Below, one piece after another: positions 8,810-38,285 of a stretch of 64,000 nt of DNA. The first letter of the stretch is position 1. The number at the start of each line of letters is the position of its first letter. The stretch is taken from positions 248,001 through 312,000 of the forward strand of contig CP060770.1 in NCBI GenBank assembly GCA_023205875.1, read 5' to 3'. A program made the position numbers and the translations under genes. Source of the stretch: Chloropicon primus. Lineage: Eukaryota. The notes beneath the pieces are model-generated. The model did not search any database and was not told the DNA's origin. It worked only from the letters and a program-made list of their open reading frames with translations.

Positions 8810-10162
8810 TCAACCCGAACCTTCCTTGATAGCTCGTAACTTGTGCAACAGAGCCAAGAAATCCTTGCACGACATGTCCTGCGGCCTTGTCTCTGGCTTG
8901 AGGCTCAAACTTTCCATCGCCGTGGCCACGGCCTCCCCCTCGTACATGTTCGAAGGGATGTTGTTCTTGACCATCTTCCTTCTCCTGCTGAAGCACTGGT
9001 TCACGAAAGTGTGGAATTGCTTGGCAGAGATCCCAGTTCCAGCGCTTTCCTCGTGTGCACCAGAGGAGAGAGAAAGCGCGCGTTCGTGGGGCATGATCTT
9101 GAAGTGAACCATCGCGCCGTCCACGTTCGGTGCCGGAAAGAAAGCCTTCCTGTCAATCTTGAAGAGGTACTCTCGGCCAGAGCAGAAGCAATCCACGAGA
9201 ACATTCATGGCTCTGTAGTTCGCATCGCCGACACTGCAGTTGCAAAGTCTGTGAGCGGCCTCGTCCTGCAGGAGCAGGTAGACGTCTCCGGAGGGCTCGG
9301 CGGACAAGGAGTCCTGCGCAGGGCGGAACAAGCTGTTGCACCTCGGCAGGAGGAACTTCAGAAGATCCGTCGTGATGTTGAAGGGGAGGTTCGCCACGAC
9401 CTTGTCGAATTTCCGCAACTGAGGTTTGCCTTCGCCGTCACCCCTCCCCTCCCTTTCCACTTGATCCCTCTGTGCCAGCCACCTCATCACATCGGCGTGT
9501 ACAATTCGAAGCTGCTTGCTTTCCAGCTCCTTCTCGAACTCCTTGGCGAAAGCCTCGAAAAGCCTGTCGTCCTTCTCCACGCACACCACCTCACAACCCT
9601 TGGCCAGCATGTACCTCGTCAAGTTCCCCGTCCCACTGCCTATCTCCAGCACCCTGTCCCCAGCACTGAGGTTCGCGTACGCAACAATCTTGTTCAGCAC
9701 TTTCTCTTGCACCATGAAGTTTTGTCCCAAGGATTTCTTCGCCCTGAAGTCCATCTTCCTCAAGTAAGCATCCGTCTTCTCAATCCCAGGCCAAAGCACT
9801 TTGGATGGATAGTACTCCTCATCCTGCTGGTCTGACACTGCACCACAGCGAAGGGTTGACTTCCGAGCACGACCACGTTCCCTTCCGAGGAGACCAAGAC
9901 CACCACCACGGCGTCCAGAGCAAGCTGAGGACCTAAACATGGTCTCTCTTCCTCTCCTCGTCAACCTTCGCGTGCCATGATGGCATGAGGACTGAAGCAT
10001 TGCATCAACATCATCATCAGCTTCATCAGCAGCAGCAGCGTGGGATGGAAACCGCTTGAGGATGGAAACGCGTCGTCTGTTTCCGTGAAAAAAAGAGGAG
10101 GAGGAGGAAGGGGTGAGATGACGGGAGGTGACGCGGTGTCGCGTCCTTCCGGTGCACGTCAT
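8810..10162 (-). CDS. KsgA/RsmA/Dim1-family rRNA adenine dimethyltransferase, probably plastid-targeted (PFC1-like)
   Basis: AKKSLGQNF, VLEIGSGTGNLT, VEKDDRL, KVVANLPFNITT, FFPAPNVDG, RRKM. Long Ser/Arg-rich N-terminal extension; exact start uncertain. Confidence 0.92.
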   Translation of the reverse strand: MTCTGRTRHRVTSRHLTPSSSSSFFHGNRRRVSILKRFPSHAAAADEADDDVDAMLQSSCHHGTRRLTRRGRETMFRSSACSGRRGGGLGLLGRERGRARKSTLRCGAVSDQQDEEYYPSKVLWPGIEKTDAYLRKMDFRAKKSLGQNFMVQEKVLNKIVAYANLSAGDRVLEIGSGTGNLTRYMLAKGCEVVCVEKDDRLFEAFAKEFEKELESKQLRIVHADVMRWLAQRDQVEREGRGDGEGKPQLRKFDKVVANLPFNITTDLLKFLLPRCNSLFRPAQDSLSAEPSGDVYLLLQDEAAHRLCNCSVGDANYRAMNVLVDCFCSGREYLFKIDRKAFFPAPNVDGAMVHFKIMPHERALSLSSGAHEESAGTGISAKQFHTFVNQCFSRRRKMVKNNIPSNMYEGEAVATAMESLSLKPETRPQDMSCKDFLALLHKLRAIKEGSG

Positions 10163-10579
10163 GGTCGCCGTCCCTCGTTCAGAAAGTGATTTCGATTTTA
10201 TCCAAAAAAAGGAAAAGGAGAGGAGAGGAGAAGAGGAAGAAAAAATTGGATTGGATTGGGATTGGATGGGATTGGGATGGGGCTTGGCTTGTGTGGAGGA
10301 TCCCAAAGCCTTCCTTTCCTTTCCTTTCACCCATTCCTCTCTTTCACTTTCTCGTTTTCTTTCTCTCTCAGCAGCAGCAGCAGCAGCAGTAGAAGAAGAA
10401 GAAGAAGAAGAAGAAGTTTTGAAGATCACCAAGATGAGGATAACGGATGATCCATTGCATTGCCATTGGATTGGATTGGATGGAGCTTGGCATGGGTATA
10501 CAAGCAGTTACTATTACACTACAAAGCAAGTGGGGAGAGCAAAAACGGGCCCTCGGGTCGACATGGTACGCGGTTGTAT

Positions 10580-11834
10580 CTATCCCGTCGCCTCCACGAC
10601 GTCTTTGATGAGTTTCGCCAGGACCTTCGCATCGTCCGATTCCGTGGACTTACTCTTCTCCCTAAGGGCATTCAAGACGCGCTTCTTTGTGTCCTCCTGC
10701 TCTTTCTTCCTCTTGGCAACGGCCTTGAGCTCTTGATCCAGAATTGCCGTGGGACTCACCTTCCCGGCCTCGTCTGAGCATGCATCCGAAGCAGGAGCTT
10801 GTGAAGGTGGTCCCGCAGGCGCCGCTCTCTTCGTCGCCTTGCTCCAAAACTCCATCGCGGGCTGAAGCATCATACCAACCAGGGTGGACTTCTTCTTTTT
10901 GGCAGGCGGCGCCGGAACCGGGTCGTCGGCAGCCTTGTGCGGCCTTTTGCACCCCTTTACTTTAACAGTGACCTTGTTTTCCTTTCCCCCTCCCCGGTGA
11001 TTCTGATTTGCTCTCTTCTTGTGTTCTCGTTGCTCTGGCCTCTGGCCTTTCTTGTCGCTGGTCAATTTTGGCTTGGGCTTTGAGCTTTCAAGCCCTTCCT
11101 TCATGTGGTCCCTGACGTCCAAGAGGTCCAAATCTATTTCCACGCCCGTTTCTTTCCTCCTCCTCGCGAGATCCCGCCGGAGCGCCGTCAGCTTGTCCTG
11201 TGATGGCTTAACGCGGTGCTTGTAAGCACAGTACGTGATCTCGCTGACAGCTTGCAAGTAAAGCTTTTTACTGCTCTCGTCCTTCATCCTGTGGAGCTTC
11301 TTTACAGCTCCTTCGATGGTTTTGTCGTTTCTGCTGCTGTCGCACCACAGCTTCATCATCCCTTGCAAGCGGATCACGAATACAACAAGTAACAGGACAG
11401 AGAGAAATAAACAGGTCAGAACGAATCGATCGGCCGAGGCAATGGCCCCACCCCGGGTGCGCGGATGCTCCCGAGTGGCGGTCACTCCACCGCAGTGTGG
11501 ACCGACACCTCCGCTGTCGTCGTCGTCGTCGTCGTCGTCGTCGTGCGTAGGCCACTTTACCTTTCTGGACGAATTCCCACGAACCATCGCCGTAAAATCG
11601 CACCAGGAACGTCTCAGTCGACTTCTTGTTCATCCTCAGCTTCGCCCTGTGGTCCTCCTGCACCTTGAGGACGTCAGCCTTGTCCAAGCCCAAAACAAGT
11701 TTCGAGAGATCTAGGGGTATGACTTGAGCTGGCCACATGGGAAACGGCTTGAGCTCGCACAAAACCAAGTCACCGTCATGAATTTCACTCGAGGAGGTGC
11801 TGGACTGTCCCTTCCCCCTCTCTCCGTCCGTCAT
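10580..11834 (-). CDS. PWWP-domain chromatin protein, one intron (11362-11560)
   Basis: GDLVLCELKPFPMWPAQV...FLVRFYGDGSWEFV is a PWWP signature. The GT..AG intron joins it in frame to the ORF ending at 10580 (KGMMKLW...LYLQAVSEI). Confidence 0.75.
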
Positions 11835-11915: not shown

Positions 11916-12210
11916 TCAAATCTTCTTCACGACGCTTCTCGAGGCAAGCCACCGATCGATCGAAAGATAATGAAGAGATGACCACTTCAGTGATGGTCTC
12001 CCTCGCTCTCACCTCCTCCTCGCGCTCTCTCCCTCCCTCGGAACGACAACCTCCTATCTCTCTCTCTCTGTCGACCGTTTCACTTGGTCAAAATCCTCTT
12101 CACGACGCTTCTCGAGGCAAGCGACCGATCGATCGAAAGAGAATGAAGGGGCGATCACTTCTGTATCGGTCTCCCTCGCTCTCCCCCTCCGCCTCGCGCG
12201 CCCTCTCTCT
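11916..12210. repeat. Diverged direct duplication, period ~173 bp
   Basis: CACGACGCTTCTCGAGGCAAGC...GATCGATCGAAAGA...GGTCTCCCTCGCTCTC begins at 11928 and 12101. Confidence 0.85.
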
Positions 12211-12327: not shown

Positions 12328-12778
12328 GAGGATCGCGAGAGGAGAGAGAGAGGAGTTGCTAAGAAGACGACGCGTCCGTAGATCTTTCGAACGCTACCTC
12401 GGTTGGCAATTTTGGATCATTCCGGAGTGATTTGCACCTCGGAGGAGCATCGAAGCAGAGCATATAGCATTGACATAACTTTTGTCTTTCGAGGCAGTGG
12501 CGACGAGAGCGAGAGGGAGGGAGAGGAAGGGGACGAGGTGCAGCTCTTTCGAAAGACAATCTCGCGATCTTTCGAAAGAGTGGTCGCTCGACTCGTTTGG
12601 ATCATGGGAGTGAATGATACGGCGGCTTGCTTCGAAGACGTAAGGTGCAGGAGAAGTGTGCAGTGAGGGTGGCAGAGGTTTCGCTCACCGTGTTATAGAG
12701 GGAGCATGCGGCGTTGTGGCATCGAGGAGTATCGTGCTCATCGGATTGAGTAGCTCCTTTCCTTTATTTTTTTCCGTG

Positions 12779-14410
12779 ATGGCTGTCTTCTTCAGAGCTG
12801 GTTTCAACGCCGTGAGGAGGAAGGGGAGCCTCCTGGGTTGGAGCGGCCCTGGTCACGTCCAGCCATGCTTGTTTGGGTTTCACAGAAGTTTCAGCCGCGA
12901 TGCCGATGCTTCGGACGTCGTAGGAAACGCGGATGCTTACGACTATGACCTGCCAGAGGACCTAATTGCTCAGAAGCCGATCACTTGGCTCGACACCGAC
13001 CGGGCCGAGGTTCGACGCAGGGACGCTTCGAGGCTGCTGTGCGTGGACGTCACTGACGAGGGGAGTCATCCAATTCAGTTCCTGAGGCAATGCAAGTTCA
13101 CTGACGTGGCCTCGTTCTTGCCCAAAGGAAGCTTGCTTGTCGCGAACAACACAAAAGTTGTCCACGCCAGACTGCAGATGAGAAAGCGCACGACTGGGGG
13201 AGCGGTGGAGCTGCTGGTGGTCTCCCCCGCGGAGGGGTCGTGCGAATCGGGCCTGAGCTCCGGTCCAGCAGAGGCATCTGCGACGTGGAAGTGCATGGTG
13301 AAGGGAAAGAATGTGAATGAGGGCACTGTTTTGATCAAGCAGCACAGCTCTGGAGTGGTTCTGAGTGCGACCATTCTGAAGAGGAGTGAGGAGAGCAGCA
13401 AGTTTGCGGACGTTGAATTCAATTGGTCGGTGGAGGGCTCCTCCGATTCGAGTGGAAGGAAGTTTGGGGACGTCCTTGAGGCCTTGGGCTCGATCCCCTT
13501 GCCGCCGTACATGAAGAGAGCGGCGGAGACTCGGGACGCGGAATCGTATCAGACGATATACGCCGGAGTGCCGGGAAGTGTCGCTGCACCAACCGCAGGT
13601 CTTCACTTCACGGAGGACCTCGTGGGGAAGCTTGAGAGGTCCAGGAGCATCTGCTTGGAGAAAGTCACTTTGCACACCGGCCCTGGGACATTTGTGCCGC
13701 TGCAGTCGAGCAAAGTCCAGGACCACCATATGCACACAGAAACATTCTCCGTCACCAGAGAAGCTCTGGCCAACGTGTGCGAGTACTTGAGGGAGGGCAA
13801 AGACGGGGCGAAGAACCTCATTGCAGTCGGAACGACGACAGTCCGGACCCTGGAAACGCTGTACTGGCTGGGTCTGCGAAGGATGCTGCGAGAACCGGGG
13901 GGGAAGCCGATGGATGATGCCACACCGCTTGATCAGCGCGATGATGAGGGGAAGTCAAAGGTCTTAACTTTTAGCCTGGACCAATGGGAACCCTACGACG
14001 TGGTTCGAGACGCTTGCGGCCAGGATTGGAGCAAGCTGCCCGATGCCTGGGCTTGCTACCAGAACCTTTTGGAGGAGTTGGACGACCAAGGAAAGGACGG
14101 GGTTTTGGGCCAGACATCCTTGCTGATCATGCCGGGCTACAGGTTCCGGGTCTGCGACCAGCTCTTCACCAACTTTCATGCGCCGAAGACGACTCTGATG
14201 CTTCTCGTTTCGGCCTTTGCCTCGTCCTCGTGTGGCACACAAAACGACCTCGGCTTGCTCGACAGGCAAGGGAGGCAGAAAGTCCTCCATGCTTACGAGC
14301 AAGCAGTGAAGCACCGGTTTCGATTCCTCAGTTACGGCGATGCTTGTTTTTTCGCCAGGTTCAAAGACCTCCCATCACCCATGTTTGAGCAAGCCACAAG
14401 TTTGCTGTAA
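12779..14410 (+). CDS. queA: S-adenosylmethionine:tRNA ribosyltransferase-isomerase QueA with N-terminal organelle (mitochondria-like) presequence
   Basis: DYDLPEDLIAQ, RDASRLL, LVANNTKVVHARL, GSIPLPPYMKR, YQTIYA...GSVAAPTAGLHFT, VTLHTGPGTF, HHMHTE, IAVGTTTVRTLE, TNFHAPKTTLMLLVSAF, YEQAV...RFLSYGDA. All the QueA family motifs are present in order. Confidence 0.96.
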   Translation: MAVFFRAGFNAVRRKGSLLGWSGPGHVQPCLFGFHRSFSRDADASDVVGNADAYDYDLPEDLIAQKPITWLDTDRAEVRRRDASRLLCVDVTDEGSHPIQFLRQCKFTDVASFLPKGSLLVANNTKVVHARLQMRKRTTGGAVELLVVSPAEGSCESGLSSGPAEASATWKCMVKGKNVNEGTVLIKQHSSGVVLSATILKRSEESSKFADVEFNWSVEGSSDSSGRKFGDVLEALGSIPLPPYMKRAAETRDAESYQTIYAGVPGSVAAPTAGLHFTEDLVGKLERSRSICLEKVTLHTGPGTFVPLQSSKVQDHHMHTETFSVTREALANVCEYLREGKDGAKNLIAVGTTTVRTLETLYWLGLRRMLREPGGKPMDDATPLDQRDDEGKSKVLTFSLDQWEPYDVVRDACGQDWSKLPDAWACYQNLLEELDDQGKDGVLGQTSLLIMPGYRFRVCDQLFTNFHAPKTTLMLLVSAFASSSCGTQNDLGLLDRQGRQKVLHAYEQAVKHRFRFLSYGDACFFARFKDLPSPMFEQATSLL

Positions 14411-14490
14411 AGCCACGCAACCTTCCCACACAAAACCATCTGATTATATTATATATTATTATATTCTACACTGCTGTACAACAAACAAAC

Positions 14491-15309
14491 TCAAACCTTT
14501 CCCTTGCGGCTCCTCTGGACGAGAGCTCGGAAGGGCAAGAGGGATGCCAAGGCCACTGCAATTTTGATGGCGTAGTCCCCAGTTGCGAGCGTGGCCCAGT
14601 GAGGCATACTCGCGTCGCCATAAAAAGCCAGGAACTGTTTCATCCGGCAAGGCAGGAGCGTCGCGGTTAGCAAAGAATCGTGGTATCGAGGACTTGCAGG
14701 GTGTGCTGCGCTTGGCACTTACCGTGAATAAATAGCTATCGACGCAAGAGCTGATGCTCGTGCTGACCAGCGGAGCCTTCCACCATTCCTTGTCCCTTAA
14801 TTTGCTGAATATGTAAACGTCAAGAAGCTGGGAGAGCAGGAAGGAAGTCCCAGAAGCTGCTGCGATGCGCACTGGACTCAACAGCAGTGAGGCAGATACT
14901 CCCGCGCCGAATCCAAAGTAGACCACTTGACGCGCGCGATCCGCACCGTAGAGTCTGTTCGTAACGTCTGTGACGAGGAAAGCAACCGGGTAAGTGAGCG
15001 ATCCGACGGTGAGCCAATCCGACAACGGGAATTGCGCGAGGTAATTGCTTGCCACGACACTGACGACCATCGCACCCGTGGGAAACACGGGAAGGTCGGG
15101 CAGGCGAGGTCCCTCCCCCTCGACGGCGGCCTCTTGTCCATCCACCTGCTCGTTCTCCTTGGTCTTGCCACTGAAGCAGACTCCGTGGCCACTTCTCGTG
15201 CTGTAACAACTCGTGCTGTAACAAGACCGTCCTCGATTGAGATCAGGAGAGTTGGCCCCGAGCAAGCGCCTCCGAACAGCAACCACGCCCCCTCGACTCG
15301 CCGTCACCA

Positions 15310-15341
<32 letters not shown>

Positions 15342-15574
15342 TCGGTCGACGCCACTCTCGACCATGAAGCGGAGGAGGCAACGGAAGTGTGCTGATGCCT
15401 CAATCGGGGTTCACATGCCGCAGCTGCTGCTGCTCTTTCAACTCCTCCTCCGCCGTTGTGGAGGCACAGCAGCCGGTGAGCTGGTAAAGACTTGTCCCCT
15501 TGAAGGGATGAAAGCCAAACTCCTGGAGAGCATCGAGTCAAGAAGGCGACTCCTCTTGACAGGAATTCCGCCAT
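14491..15574 (-). CDS. yhhQ: YhhQ/Vut_1 (COG1738) queuosine-precursor transporter with long N-terminal targeting-like extension, one intron (14635-14722)
   Basis: MVVSVVASNYL, WLTVGSLTYPVAFLVTDVTNRLYGADRARQVV, RIAAASGTSFLLSQLLDVYIFSKLR..WWKAP..S...SSCVDS. A GTAAGT..CTAAC..CAG intron restores LFTFLAFYG...WATLATGDYAIKIAVAL..LPFRAL. Confidence 0.9.
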
Positions 15575-15809
15575 GATGAAGCGTCTAGGAGACCAACCTC
15601 CACTGGGATCAATCCACCACCTTCCTCCTCACCAGTTTGGGACGCTTCCCTGAGTTGTTGTTGATATTGTTGCTGATGATGAACCCAGGAGGATGAGGAA
15701 CGTCATCCTCCCTCCCTCCTCCTTCACAGCGTCAACCCCTTCGAAAGAGGCGTCAATCGAAAGATCAAAACACGAAGCTTCTTCCTCTTAACCTCTCCTC
15801 CTCCTCCTC

Positions 15810-15850
<41 letters not shown>

Positions 15851-16031
15851 CCCTCTAACTCTCTGTCTCTCTCTCCTCCCTGCTCCTCATCCAAACCTCA
15901 ACCTCATTCCCTCACCCGAGCGCCGTTCGTTTCGTGCGAGACGTCGATTTGAAAAGCTATTCGTAACGCTTGCGAGCGTCAACCTCCCTCACGCCGTAAC
16001 GCCCGCCCTCCTCTTCCACCAAACCCTAACG

Positions 16032-36737: not shown

Positions 36738-37799
36738 CTATATGTAGATGCCCTTCTTGGTCTTGAGCATCCCGTTCAAGTGTCTCAACTGCTCGGGCGT
36801 GTCGACGCCGTGGACAGCTTTCTCGACGAGGCCGACTTTGATCTTGTATCCGGCCTCGATGACTTTGTTCTGCTCGAGATCCTCTTGCTTCTGCAACAAG
36901 CTTTGTGGCATTTCATTCACGTACGTGTTCAAGAAGCTTGCTCGGTACGCGTAGATCCCTAGCTTGCGCCAGTACAAGCACTTGAGAGTAGGGGAGAGCA
37001 ATCCCAGAGTCAGAAAGAGACAAAGGCGGGCCACATGCCAATGAGAAAAGTCAACAAACAAACAAAAACTTACCTTGGGGTCGTACTTCCCCCTCTTGTT
37101 GTACGGTATCATAGCTCGAGAAAAGTACAGTGCGTTGTTGGTCTTGTCCAAGACAACCTTGACGTTGTTCACATTCGTCACATCTTCAGAATCATTCAGG
37201 TTGGCAGGCCTTGCCAAAGTCCCCATCACAACCGAAGCATCACCAGCTTCTATTCCACTCCTGATACAGTCCACGACCTTCTCCACGTGCTCTGATTCGA
37301 TAAACGGTTCATCCCCTTGAACGTTCACAACGATGTCATAATTCTTCTCACCGAGATGTTGCAGCACCTCCAAGCATCTCTCGGTTCCATTGTTGCACGA
37401 CTCGCTCGTCATCACAACCTTCCCACCAAAGTCTCTGACACACTCCGCGATGCGTTCATCGTCTGTGGCCACCACAAGCTCGTCAAAACAGTTGCTCTTC
37501 TTGGCATTGGTGTACGTGTGCCAGATCATTGGGTTGCCACAGAGGTCTGCCAATGGCTTGCCAGGGAATCGGGTCGAGTTGTACCTCGCAGGGATGACAC
37601 CCAACACCTTGTTGGTTGTCATCCTATTGTGCAACCACTTGTGAACCTTTGGAAGGAACCTTTTTGCCACCACCTCGTACACGAAGGCATGGAGAACAAA
37701 GGTCGCCAAGTGTTTGTTAATTTTGGATGATCTTTCGTGATCTTTCGTGATCTTCGTGGTGTCCTCCTTGGGACTCTTTTTCTTGCCGAAGAGAGACAT
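36738..37799 (-). CDS. kdsB: CMP-KDO synthetase (3-deoxy-manno-octulosonate cytidylyltransferase), one in-frame intron (36981-37073)
   Basis: VIPARYNSTRFPGKPL, VVATDDERI, GTER, VNVQGDEP, VKVV..ALYFSRA.IP, GIYAYR, EDLEQ, GVDTPEQL. The 93-nt GTAAGT..AG segment is non-homologous. Confidence 0.95.
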   Translation of the reverse strand: MSLFGKKKSPKEDTTKITKDHERSSKINKHLATFVLHAFVYEVVAKRFLPKVHKWLHNRMTTNKVLGVIPARYNSTRFPGKPLADLCGNPMIWHTYTNAKKSNCFDELVVATDDERIAECVRDFGGKVVMTSESCNNGTERCLEVLQHLGEKNYDIVVNVQGDEPFIESEHVEKVVDCIRSGIEAGDASVVMGTLARPANLNDSEDVTNVNNVKVVLDKTNNALYFSRAMIPYNKRGKYDPKVSFCLFVDFSHWHVARLCLFLTLGLLSPTLKCLYWRKLGIYAYRASFLNTYVNEMPQSLLQKQEDLEQNKVIEAGYKIKVGLVEKAVHGVDTPEQLRHLNGMLKTKKGIYI

Positions 37800-37802
37800 A
37801 CT

Positions 37803-38285
37803 GCTCCTTGGTTGTCCTCTCCTCTCTCTGTCTCTGCTTCAGCTGTCCAGAACATCACCAAGGAATCTCCGGGATCATAGGGAGAGGAAGCAGAGAGGAT
37901 GATGGGTGATGGAGGATCAGGGAGGGGTCAAGCAAAGGCGTTCATTCGTTTGCTTTGATTCAGGCTCCTTGGTTGTCCTCTCCTCTCTCTGTCTCTGCTT
38001 CAGCTGTCCAGAACATCACCAAGGAATCTCCGGGATCATAGGGAGAGGAAGCAGAGAGGATGATGGGTGATGGAGGATCAGGGAGGGGTCAAGCAAAGGC
38101 GTTCATTCGTTTGCTTTGATTCAGGCTCCTTGGTTGTCCTCTCCTCTCTCTGTCTCTGCTTCAGCTGTCCAGAACATCACCAAGGAATCTCCGGGATCAT
38201 AGGGAGAGGAAGCAGAGAGGATGATGGGTGATGGAGGATCAGGGAGGGGTCAAGCAAAGGCGTTCATTCGTTTGCTTTGATTCAG
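37803..38285. repeat. Near-perfect tandem repeat, 161 bp x3, directly upstream of kdsB
   Basis: GCTCCTTGGTTGTCCTCTCC... begins at 37803, 37964 and 38125. Confidence 0.95.

What the first reader, a model, noticed from the sequence alone, without database searches (positions are those of the whole stretch)
14491..15574. yhhQ has a spliceosomal intron and a ~150-aa leader: domesticated, not contamination
Seen: the ORF track splits the gene. Removing an 88-nt GTAAGT...GCTAAC...CAG intron (14635-14722) restores the family C-terminus (DSYLFTFLAFYG...WATLATGDYAIKIAVAL). The Ser/Arg-rich leader looks like an organelle transit peptide. The WLT.G.LTYP.AFLVTD..NR.YG and WW.AP..S motifs resemble the alphaproteobacterial subtype (recalled, not computed). 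Inference: an organelle inner-membrane carrier for Q precursors, possibly of different origin from the neighbouring queA. If so, the cluster was assembled in the eukaryote.
Basis: partly seen in the sequence, partly recalled or inferred. Interest (0 to 1): 0.72.

Follow-up and report, generated by a model that had tools for sequence, protein, structure and literature searches.

The report
Spliced algal queuosine-precursor transporter gene
A tiny marine green alga has a real, spliced, expressed nuclear gene for a bacterial-type transporter that likely carries a building block of the tRNA base queuosine into its mitochondria; the gene is already in print, but its public protein models lack the long leader, and leader-bearing relatives also occur in other algae.

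Summary
Observation confirmed. The 88-nt intron (14635-14722) is skipped in 4 of 4 RNA runs laid, and the spliced 331-aa product equals a complete transcriptome ORF. The core is identical to Chloropicon primus YhhQ, already published with its queA neighbour and a predicted mitochondrial location (PMC12301720), so the gene is known.

Not found in my seven literature searches: (1) both deposited models are 163 aa and start at Met169, without the ~156-aa leader and likely clipping helix 1; (2) leader-bearing YhhQs also occur in Pycnococcus, the cryptophyte Hanusia and unnamed lineages, although the paper found only bacterial hits; (3) yhhQ is of a proteobacterial subtype, whereas queA is of the long Bacteroidota/Kapabacteria type, and a tree test rejects grouping it with QueAs from bacterial yhhQ-queA operons (p = 2.7e-5); (4) a relative's gene lacks the intron and has no queA right behind it.

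The eukaryote-like YhhQs group together only weakly (85/93, one leaderless sequence inside); one old origin and repeated transfers both survive. Organelle and substrate are predicted, not tested.

The parts
14723..15574 (-). yhhQ exon 1, codons 1-284: leader plus most of the Vut_1/COG1738 core; ATG with A at -3 and G at +4
   Evidence: RNA contigs cover 14723-15301 and 15350-15785 with no joint; equals P0003
14635..14722 (-). 88-nt phase-0 GT-AG spliceosomal intron
   Evidence: joint in 4 of 4 runs laid; absent at the same site in relative L001
14666..14671 (-). branch-point-like GCTAAC, about 32 nt before the 3' splice site
   Evidence: sequence; use as branch point inferred
14491..14634 (-). 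yhhQ exon 2, 47 codons plus stop: end of helix 5 and the last membrane helix
   Evidence: weak PRK11212 and TIGR00697 matches on its own; aligns with homologues
15107..15574 (-). 156-aa Ser/Arg-rich leader, predicted organelle targeting peptide; missing from both deposited models
   Evidence: similar leaders in P0005, P0434, P0583
15302..15349 (-). trinucleotide repeat coding the poly-Ser run of the leader
   Evidence: sequence; skipped as a repeat by read laying; poly-Ser also in P0005
15068..15070 (-). internal ATG (Met169), start of the 163-aa public models A3770_17p79880 and HOP50_17g80100
15575..16017 (-). transcribed 5' region with three upstream ATGs (15907, 15890, 15706)
   Evidence: RNA contigs at 15350-15785 and 15884-16017; ATGs; contigs cannot show the true start
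12779..14410 (+). queA, 543 aa, long Bacteroidota/Kapabacteria type with a basic leader; convergent with yhhQ, 80 bp between the stops
10580..11834 (-). PWWP-domain gene with an intron at 11361-11559; a similar gene follows yhhQ directly in relative L001

Best explanation
This is a spliced, transcribed nuclear gene of Chloropicon primus for a COG1738 (YhhQ/QPTR) membrane protein whose long leader likely sends it to the mitochondrial inner membrane, where it is predicted to carry preQ1 into the matrix for Q-tRNA synthesis. Steps: (1) shown: transcription, splicing, a 331-aa ORF from Met1; (2) inferred: import through the leader, which is then cleaved or left in the matrix; (3) predicted: the core folds as a six-helix ECF S-component-like carrier working without ATPases, as proposed for bacterial YhhQ; (4) inferred from the paper's gene set (BL-TGT, QueA, QueG; no QueF listed): preQ1 is the precursor the organelle can finish to queuosine. 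The pathway is a mosaic: yhhQ from a proteobacterial subtype, queA from the long Bacteroidota/Kapabacteria type (supported here), TGT of Chlamydia type (paper, not tested). The yhhQ-queA adjacency therefore arose in the eukaryote. The intron is likely a late gain in the C. primus line.
For: Splicing and ORF. Family: PF02592 and TIGR00697 over cut-off. Fold: AF2 core pLDDT 92.2, pTM 0.86, six long helical segments; the top 14 VIA rows are ECF S-component-type chains, best RibU 5kbw Z 12.5, rmsd 3.2, 149 aligned, next unrelated row 8.4. Purifying selection against L001: dN 0.29, dS 2.12 over 174 codons, near saturation. Close bacterial relatives lie in Q operons: yhhQ-queA-tgt followed by queF in G354, yhhQ-queA in L003 and G396. 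All 10 leader-bearing proteins measured have more Arg+Lys than Asp+Glu in the first 40 residues; the Hanusia leader has no hydrophobic signal peptide (max 0.88), which a cryptophyte plastid protein would need (established knowledge). Mitochondrial prediction for YhhQ, BL-TGT, QueA, QueG in PMC12301720. Separate origin: 14 of 14 bacterially named rows among the 120 QueA hits listed are Kapabacteria/Bacteroidota; algal QueA sits with them at 100/99, shares 51 insert columns that proteobacteria lack and none the other way, and AU rejects algae + yhhQ-linked proteobacterial QueA, p 2.7e-5.
Against: No targeting predictor and no transport assay here. The C. primus leader is the least presequence-like of the Chloropicon pair (4 Arg+Lys, 2 Asp+Glu in the first 40; Ser-rich) and could be plastid or dual. 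The paper's location may rest on models without the leader; I could not see which sequence was used. Simple hydropathy finds only 2 windows above 1.4; Foldseek gave no match at E <= 0.001, and Z near 12 is borderline for helical bundles. The protein is below the cut-off of the E. coli-type equivalog PRK11212 (105 of 252 bits). A residue that is aromatic in 42 of 42 other rows is aromatic in only 1 of 11 eukaryote-like rows, so the substrate may have shifted. The paper reports yhhQ missing in 2 of 3 C. roscoffensis strains that keep queA and queG, so it is dispensable. No Bacteroidota yhhQ was in my tree.
Confidence: 0.7

Rival explanations
1. The leader targets the plastid envelope or both organelles, supplying Q precursors to plastid tRNAs.
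For: Ser/Thr-rich (22%), long, with acidic residues early; plastids also encode GUN tRNAs (PMC12301720).
Against: The cryptophyte homologue has no signal peptide; partner enzymes are predicted mitochondrial.
Confidence: 0.12
2. Mitochondrial, but the main cargo is queuine (or preQ0), feeding BL-TGT directly as in Chlamydia.
For: QPTR specificity shifts between members (PMC11130926, PMC11570991 passages); BL-TGT has queuine-type pocket residues; eukaryote-like rows differ at otherwise conserved columns.
Against: Its neighbour QueA acts only on preQ1-tRNA; close bacterial relatives sit with queA, tgt and queF.
Confidence: 0.12
3. The protein starts at Met169 as in the public models, has no leader, and works at the plasma membrane or another non-organellar membrane.
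For: Both deposited models start there; three upstream ATGs lie before Met1; leader similarity to P0005 is only the poly-Ser run (676 of 2000 shuffles as high when masked).
Against: Open frame from Met1 with A at -3 and G at +4, against G at -3 for Met169; RNA covers the leader; bacterial helix 1 starts about 10 residues before this Met and the modelled first helix is only 10 residues; relatives keep open leaders.
Confidence: 0.04
4. yhhQ and queA came together from one bacterial yhhQ-queA operon.
For: Such operons exist among close yhhQ relatives: 2 of 30 genome loci and 1 of 38 metagenome loci (many of the latter have short flanks); algal yhhQ with the queA-linked alpha yhhQ is not rejected (p 0.127).
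Against: QueA side rejected (p 2.7e-5) with 51 insert columns against it; the genes are convergent, not co-directional; not linked in RCC2335 (paper) or behind yhhQ in L001.
Confidence: 0.02
5. Bacterial contamination or a dead insert.
For: GC3 of the core (0.66) is at the low end of the window genes measured (0.67-0.87).
Against: Spliced in 4 of 4 runs, eukaryotic neighbours, orthologues under purifying selection.
Confidence: 0.005

Closest known systems
Chloropicon primus YhhQ A3770_17p79880 / HOP50_17g80100 and the proposed mitochondrial BL-TGT/QueA/QueG salvage pathway (Turmel et al. 2025, PMC12301720)
   Same: The same gene: 100% identical core, same splice, next to queA.
   Different: Deposited proteins are 163 aa without the leader; the paper found only bacterial YhhQ homologues and treats the pathway as one retained ancestral unit, whereas here YhhQ has eukaryotic homologues and a different bacterial affinity from QueA.
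E. coli YhhQ / QPTR, COG1738, PF02592, TIGR00697 (Zallot et al. 2017, PMC5372724)
   Same: Family models over cut-off, six helices, linkage to Q genes.
   Different: Shorter subtype on another branch (E. coli-type outgroup 100/100), below the PRK11212 cut-off; nuclear, intron-bearing, with a leader.
Bartonella henselae QPTR (Quaiyum et al. 2024, PMC11570991)
   Same: Characterised alphaproteobacterial member: preQ0 and preQ1, queuine only at high concentration; probably the nearest tested subtype (inferred from taxonomy).
   Different: Its sequence was not in my alignment; Hyphomicrobiales rows carry an insert after helix 5 that the algal protein lacks.
ECF S-components (RibU, ThiT, BioY, BtuM)
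   Same: Predicted fold (Z 9-12.5).
   Different: 6-13% identity; a shared fold shows neither substrate nor mechanism.

Membership tests
COG1738 / QPTR (YhhQ) | Match to PF02592 and TIGR00697 above curated cut-offs | tested here: met
   PF02592 76.6 bits against 27.2 (unspliced); TIGR00697 95.5 against 50.95
COG1738 / QPTR (YhhQ) | About six membrane helices | tested here: met
   Six long helical segments in a pLDDT-92 model; hydropathy alone finds 2
COG1738 / QPTR (YhhQ) | Genomic association with Q-pathway genes | tested here: met
   queA 80 bp away; relatives in yhhQ-queA-tgt-queF operons
COG1738 / QPTR (YhhQ) | Transport of preQ0, preQ1 or queuine | not testable with these tools
   Needs a complementation assay
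E. coli-type YhhQ equivalog (PRK11212) | Score above 252 bits | tested here: not met
   105 bits; separate branch
Short proteobacterial QPTR subtype | Nearest homologues, and no inserts after helices 3 and 5 | tested here: met
   Oceanibaculum and Rhodospirillum clusters at 58-63% over exon 1; alignment; includes Betaproteobacteria
Spliceosomal intron | GT-AG ends, branch-point motif, removal from RNA | tested here: met
Mitochondrial presequence protein | Basic, amphipathic N-terminus poor in acids; import and cleavage | tested here: inconclusive
   Composition only; no predictor or experiment available
ECF S-component fold | Six-helix S-component topology | tested here: met
   Top 14 VIA rows, best Z 12.5, rmsd 3.2, 149 aligned; Foldseek weak, E 0.11
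Single eukaryotic QPTR clade | Monophyly of eukaryotic members | tested here: inconclusive
   85/93 and 80/67 with P0096 inside; AU p 0.29 for monophyly, 0.15 for Chloropicon + Oceanibaculum
Co-transferred yhhQ-queA operon | Both genes branch with the same donor | tested here: not met
   QueA AU p 2.7e-5

The most novel reading that the evidence does not exclude
Leader-bearing YhhQs of green algae (Chloropicon, Pycnococcus), cryptophytes (Hanusia) and other unnamed protists descend from one ancient alphaproteobacterial gene, possibly the mitochondrial ancestor's own, and form an overlooked mitochondrial carrier family for queuosine precursors, serving a pathway stitched together from three bacterial donors (proteobacterial YhhQ, Bacteroidota-type QueA, Chlamydia-type TGT).
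Probability: 0.3. Interest if true: 0.75.

Novelty: already known. Interest (0 to 1): 0.45.

Why it matters
How queuosine precursors reach organelle tRNAs is open: PMC11130926 (2024) says no eukaryotic Q-precursor transporter gene had been identified, and PMC12301720 says algal organelle tRNAs have not been shown to carry Q. A correct full-length model makes the proposed mitochondrial carrier directly testable (leader-GFP, E. coli complementation), and natural strains with and without the gene exist. If the eukaryotic copies are one clade, this is an old organellar transporter family in abundant plankton. If not, it is a case of the same bacterial subtype being recruited to mitochondria several times.

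Tried and rejected
1. No whole genome is held, so queG, BL-TGT and QueF could not be checked; they rest on the paper. 2. A 5' intron in queA (12643-12797) that I suspected from the sequence: no joint in 4 runs, cover thin; dropped in favour of the public start at 12779. 3. Homology of the C. primus and P0005 leaders: 76 of 2000 shuffles as high, 676 of 2000 with poly-Ser masked; not shown. 4. One origin of algal and Teleaulax QueA: one side of a branch in 0 of 200 bootstrap trees; not supported in this sample, which had no red algal QueA. 5. A named donor for yhhQ: neither Chloropicon + Oceanibaculum (p 0.15) nor Chloropicon + queA-linked alpha rows (p 0.127) is rejected or recovered. 6. A viral vector: 3 viral contigs at 35-39% identity, far below bacterial hits; not followed. 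7. The genome-contig scan gave only 3 Ancylobacter loci. 8. The protein atlas gave no result. 9. X4 (small word share) showed only repeats; no evidence. 10. The paper's supplementary trees S5d-g are pictures; only legends were readable, so its YhhQ and QueA trees may bear on the origin claims. 11. No complex prediction was sent: no binding claim is made.

Full report
Observation. The gene lies on the minus strand, 15574 to 14491. The unspliced frame is open for 371 aa but ends in an unrelated tail. Removing 14635-14722 (88 nt, GTAAGT...GCTAAC...CAG, phase 0) gives 331 aa. Of 8 runs listed, 5 hold part of the stretch. I laid 4, from 3 studies, and all 4 show the joint 14634/14723; one is on record as a polyA seawater metatranscriptome, three are guessed RNA. 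The spliced product equals the complete MMETSP ORF P0003. Splicing raises the TIGR00697 score from 68.5 to 95.5 bits. The neighbours are eukaryotic genes (XPB, coatomer beta, dynamin, CFAP91). Contamination is excluded.

Identity and prior work. The core is identical to Chloropicon primus A3770_17p79880 / HOP50_17g80100. PMC12301720 (abstract, passages, section 16 whole, supplement text searched) reports this YhhQ, its link to queA on chromosome 17, a predicted mitochondrial location with BL-TGT, QueA and QueG, its absence from 2 of 3 C. roscoffensis strains, a different chromosome from queA in the third, and 'exclusively bacterial' BLAST hits. It proposes an ancient retained pathway. The word 'intron' occurs 5 times in the main text; the passages shown concern genome statistics. 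The deposited proteins are already spliced.

Leader. Both deposited proteins are 163 aa and begin at Met169. The only Met before it is Met1, with A at -3 and G at +4. RNA contigs cover 14723-15301 and 15350-15785; the repeat between was skipped by the tool, but P0003 runs through it. In bacterial homologues helix 1 starts about 10 residues before the equivalent Met, and the model of the short form has a first helix of only 10 residues, so the short model likely clips it. The leader (156 aa) is 22% Ser+Thr, 9% Arg and non-hydrophobic. Whether it is mitochondrial or plastid could not be tested; composition alone is ambiguous.

Fold and function. The AF2 model of the core (44-sequence alignment) has pLDDT 92.2 and six long helical segments. 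Foldseek found nothing at E <= 0.001, its best rows being ECF S-components; VIA-align ranks 14 S-component-type chains first, best Z 12.5. PMC5372724 (passages) describes YhhQ as a six-helix carrier without linked ECF ATPases, notes substrate subgroups, and found the family in only four eukaryotic genomes, not named in the passages seen. PMC11570991 and PMC11130926 (passages) give the tested specificities. Close bacterial relatives sit in Q operons, e.g. yhhQ-queA-tgt then queF in G354. preQ1 as cargo is inferred from the paper's gene set.

Relatives in algae. Two unnamed clusters are 72-73% identical over the exon-1 core (P0004, P0005) and group with C. primus at 100/99. P0005 has a 128-aa Ser/Arg-rich leader. 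Its gene reads straight through the intron site on contigs up to 57 kb and in L001; dN/dS against the window is about 0.14, near saturation. Other eukaryote-like rows called on contigs also read through the site (P0451, P0475), so a gain in the C. primus line is the simpler reading (inferred). In L001 a PWWP gene follows yhhQ directly and resembles the window's PWWP gene beyond queA (34% over 94 aa, E 3.7e-15; orthology not proven). queA thus lies between the two only in the window; which order is older cannot be told.

Wider eukaryotic presence. A profile search of 1.84 billion representatives (3588 hits at E <= 0.001, best 150 listed) returned several proteins with basic leaders. Two unnamed clusters break off inside the core, as intron-bearing genes read by a bacterial gene caller would (P0572, P0578; inferred). 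Seven literature searches showed no paper on these; the library lacks most subscription papers.

YhhQ tree. With 66 rows and 176 columns, all 11 eukaryotic or leader-bearing rows fall on one branch (85/93) with two unnamed rows, P0439 (eukaryote-like by its motifs) and the leaderless P0096, sister to Chloropicon at 81/91. After dropping 13 rows (6 outgroup, 7 long-branched including Pycnococcus) support is 80/67, and strict monophyly holds in 8% of 200 bootstrap trees. AU tests reject neither eukaryote monophyly (p 0.29) nor Chloropicon + Oceanibaculum (p 0.15) nor Chloropicon + queA-linked alpha rows (p 0.127). Shared residues exist (Ser/Thr in 10 of 11 where 40 of 42 others have Ala; Pro in 9 of 11; loss of an aromatic in 10 of 11), but these columns were picked after the grouping and could be convergent. 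The origin is unresolved.

QueA origin. Among the 120 best of 7997 hits, all 14 rows with a bacterial organism name are Kapabacteria or Bacteroidota, at 33-39% identity; one is the cryptophyte Teleaulax. In a 39-row tree the algal QueAs lie with this long type, apart from 7 proteobacterial QueAs, at 100/99. They share 51 insert columns with it and none with proteobacteria alone. Holding them with the three QueAs from bacterial yhhQ-queA operons is rejected, p 2.7e-5 (quick tree). Such operons occur in 2 of 30 genome loci and 1 of 38 metagenome loci examined, so the rival was real but fails on the QueA side. Algal and Teleaulax QueA did not group (0 of 200).

Verdict. A real, expressed, selected gene that is already described. 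The additions are a corrected gene model, other eukaryotic members and evidence for a mosaic pathway. Yuan 2019 and Manna and Harman 2016 were seen only as cited in the papers above. The rule that cryptophyte plastid proteins need a signal peptide is recalled, not from a call.

Noticed in passing
window 11361-11559: 199-nt intron holding a GAC repeat in the PWWP gene, skipped by contigs of 3 of 4 runs; the similar gene in L001 has no intron there.
   Followed up: partly
window 12559-12601 and 12024-12165: Short dispersed repeats upstream of queA that also match contigs of other transcripts (loose ends).
   Followed up: no
window 14411-14490: Only 80 bp between the queA and yhhQ stops; one RNA contig runs across both genes and another ends at 14426, so the 3' ends may overlap (contigs cannot show strand).
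   Followed up: no
window about 15200-15230: 15-nt tandem duplication in the leader giving a five-residue repeat after an Arg, resembling a mitochondrial cleavage site (resemblance recalled).
   Followed up: no
window 8810-10507: RsmA/KsgA rRNA dimethyltransferase over the TIGR00755 cut-off, another likely organellar RNA-modifying gene about 3 kb from queA.
   Followed up: no
window 36738-37838 and 2005-2910: A cytidylyltransferase of the CMP-Kdo synthetase type (PF02348) and a UL52/PrimPol-like zinc-finger domain.
   Followed up: no
P0275, P0286: QueA fused to an EPSP synthase domain (PF00275), 883-920 aa, in unnamed records.
   Followed up: no
L097-L099: yhhQ-like genes on three viral contigs, 35-39% identity.
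   Followed up: no
P0096: Leaderless 182-aa YhhQ from an unnamed record, sister to the Chloropicon clade in both trees (81/91, 87/90); a donor candidate or an artefact.
   Followed up: partly
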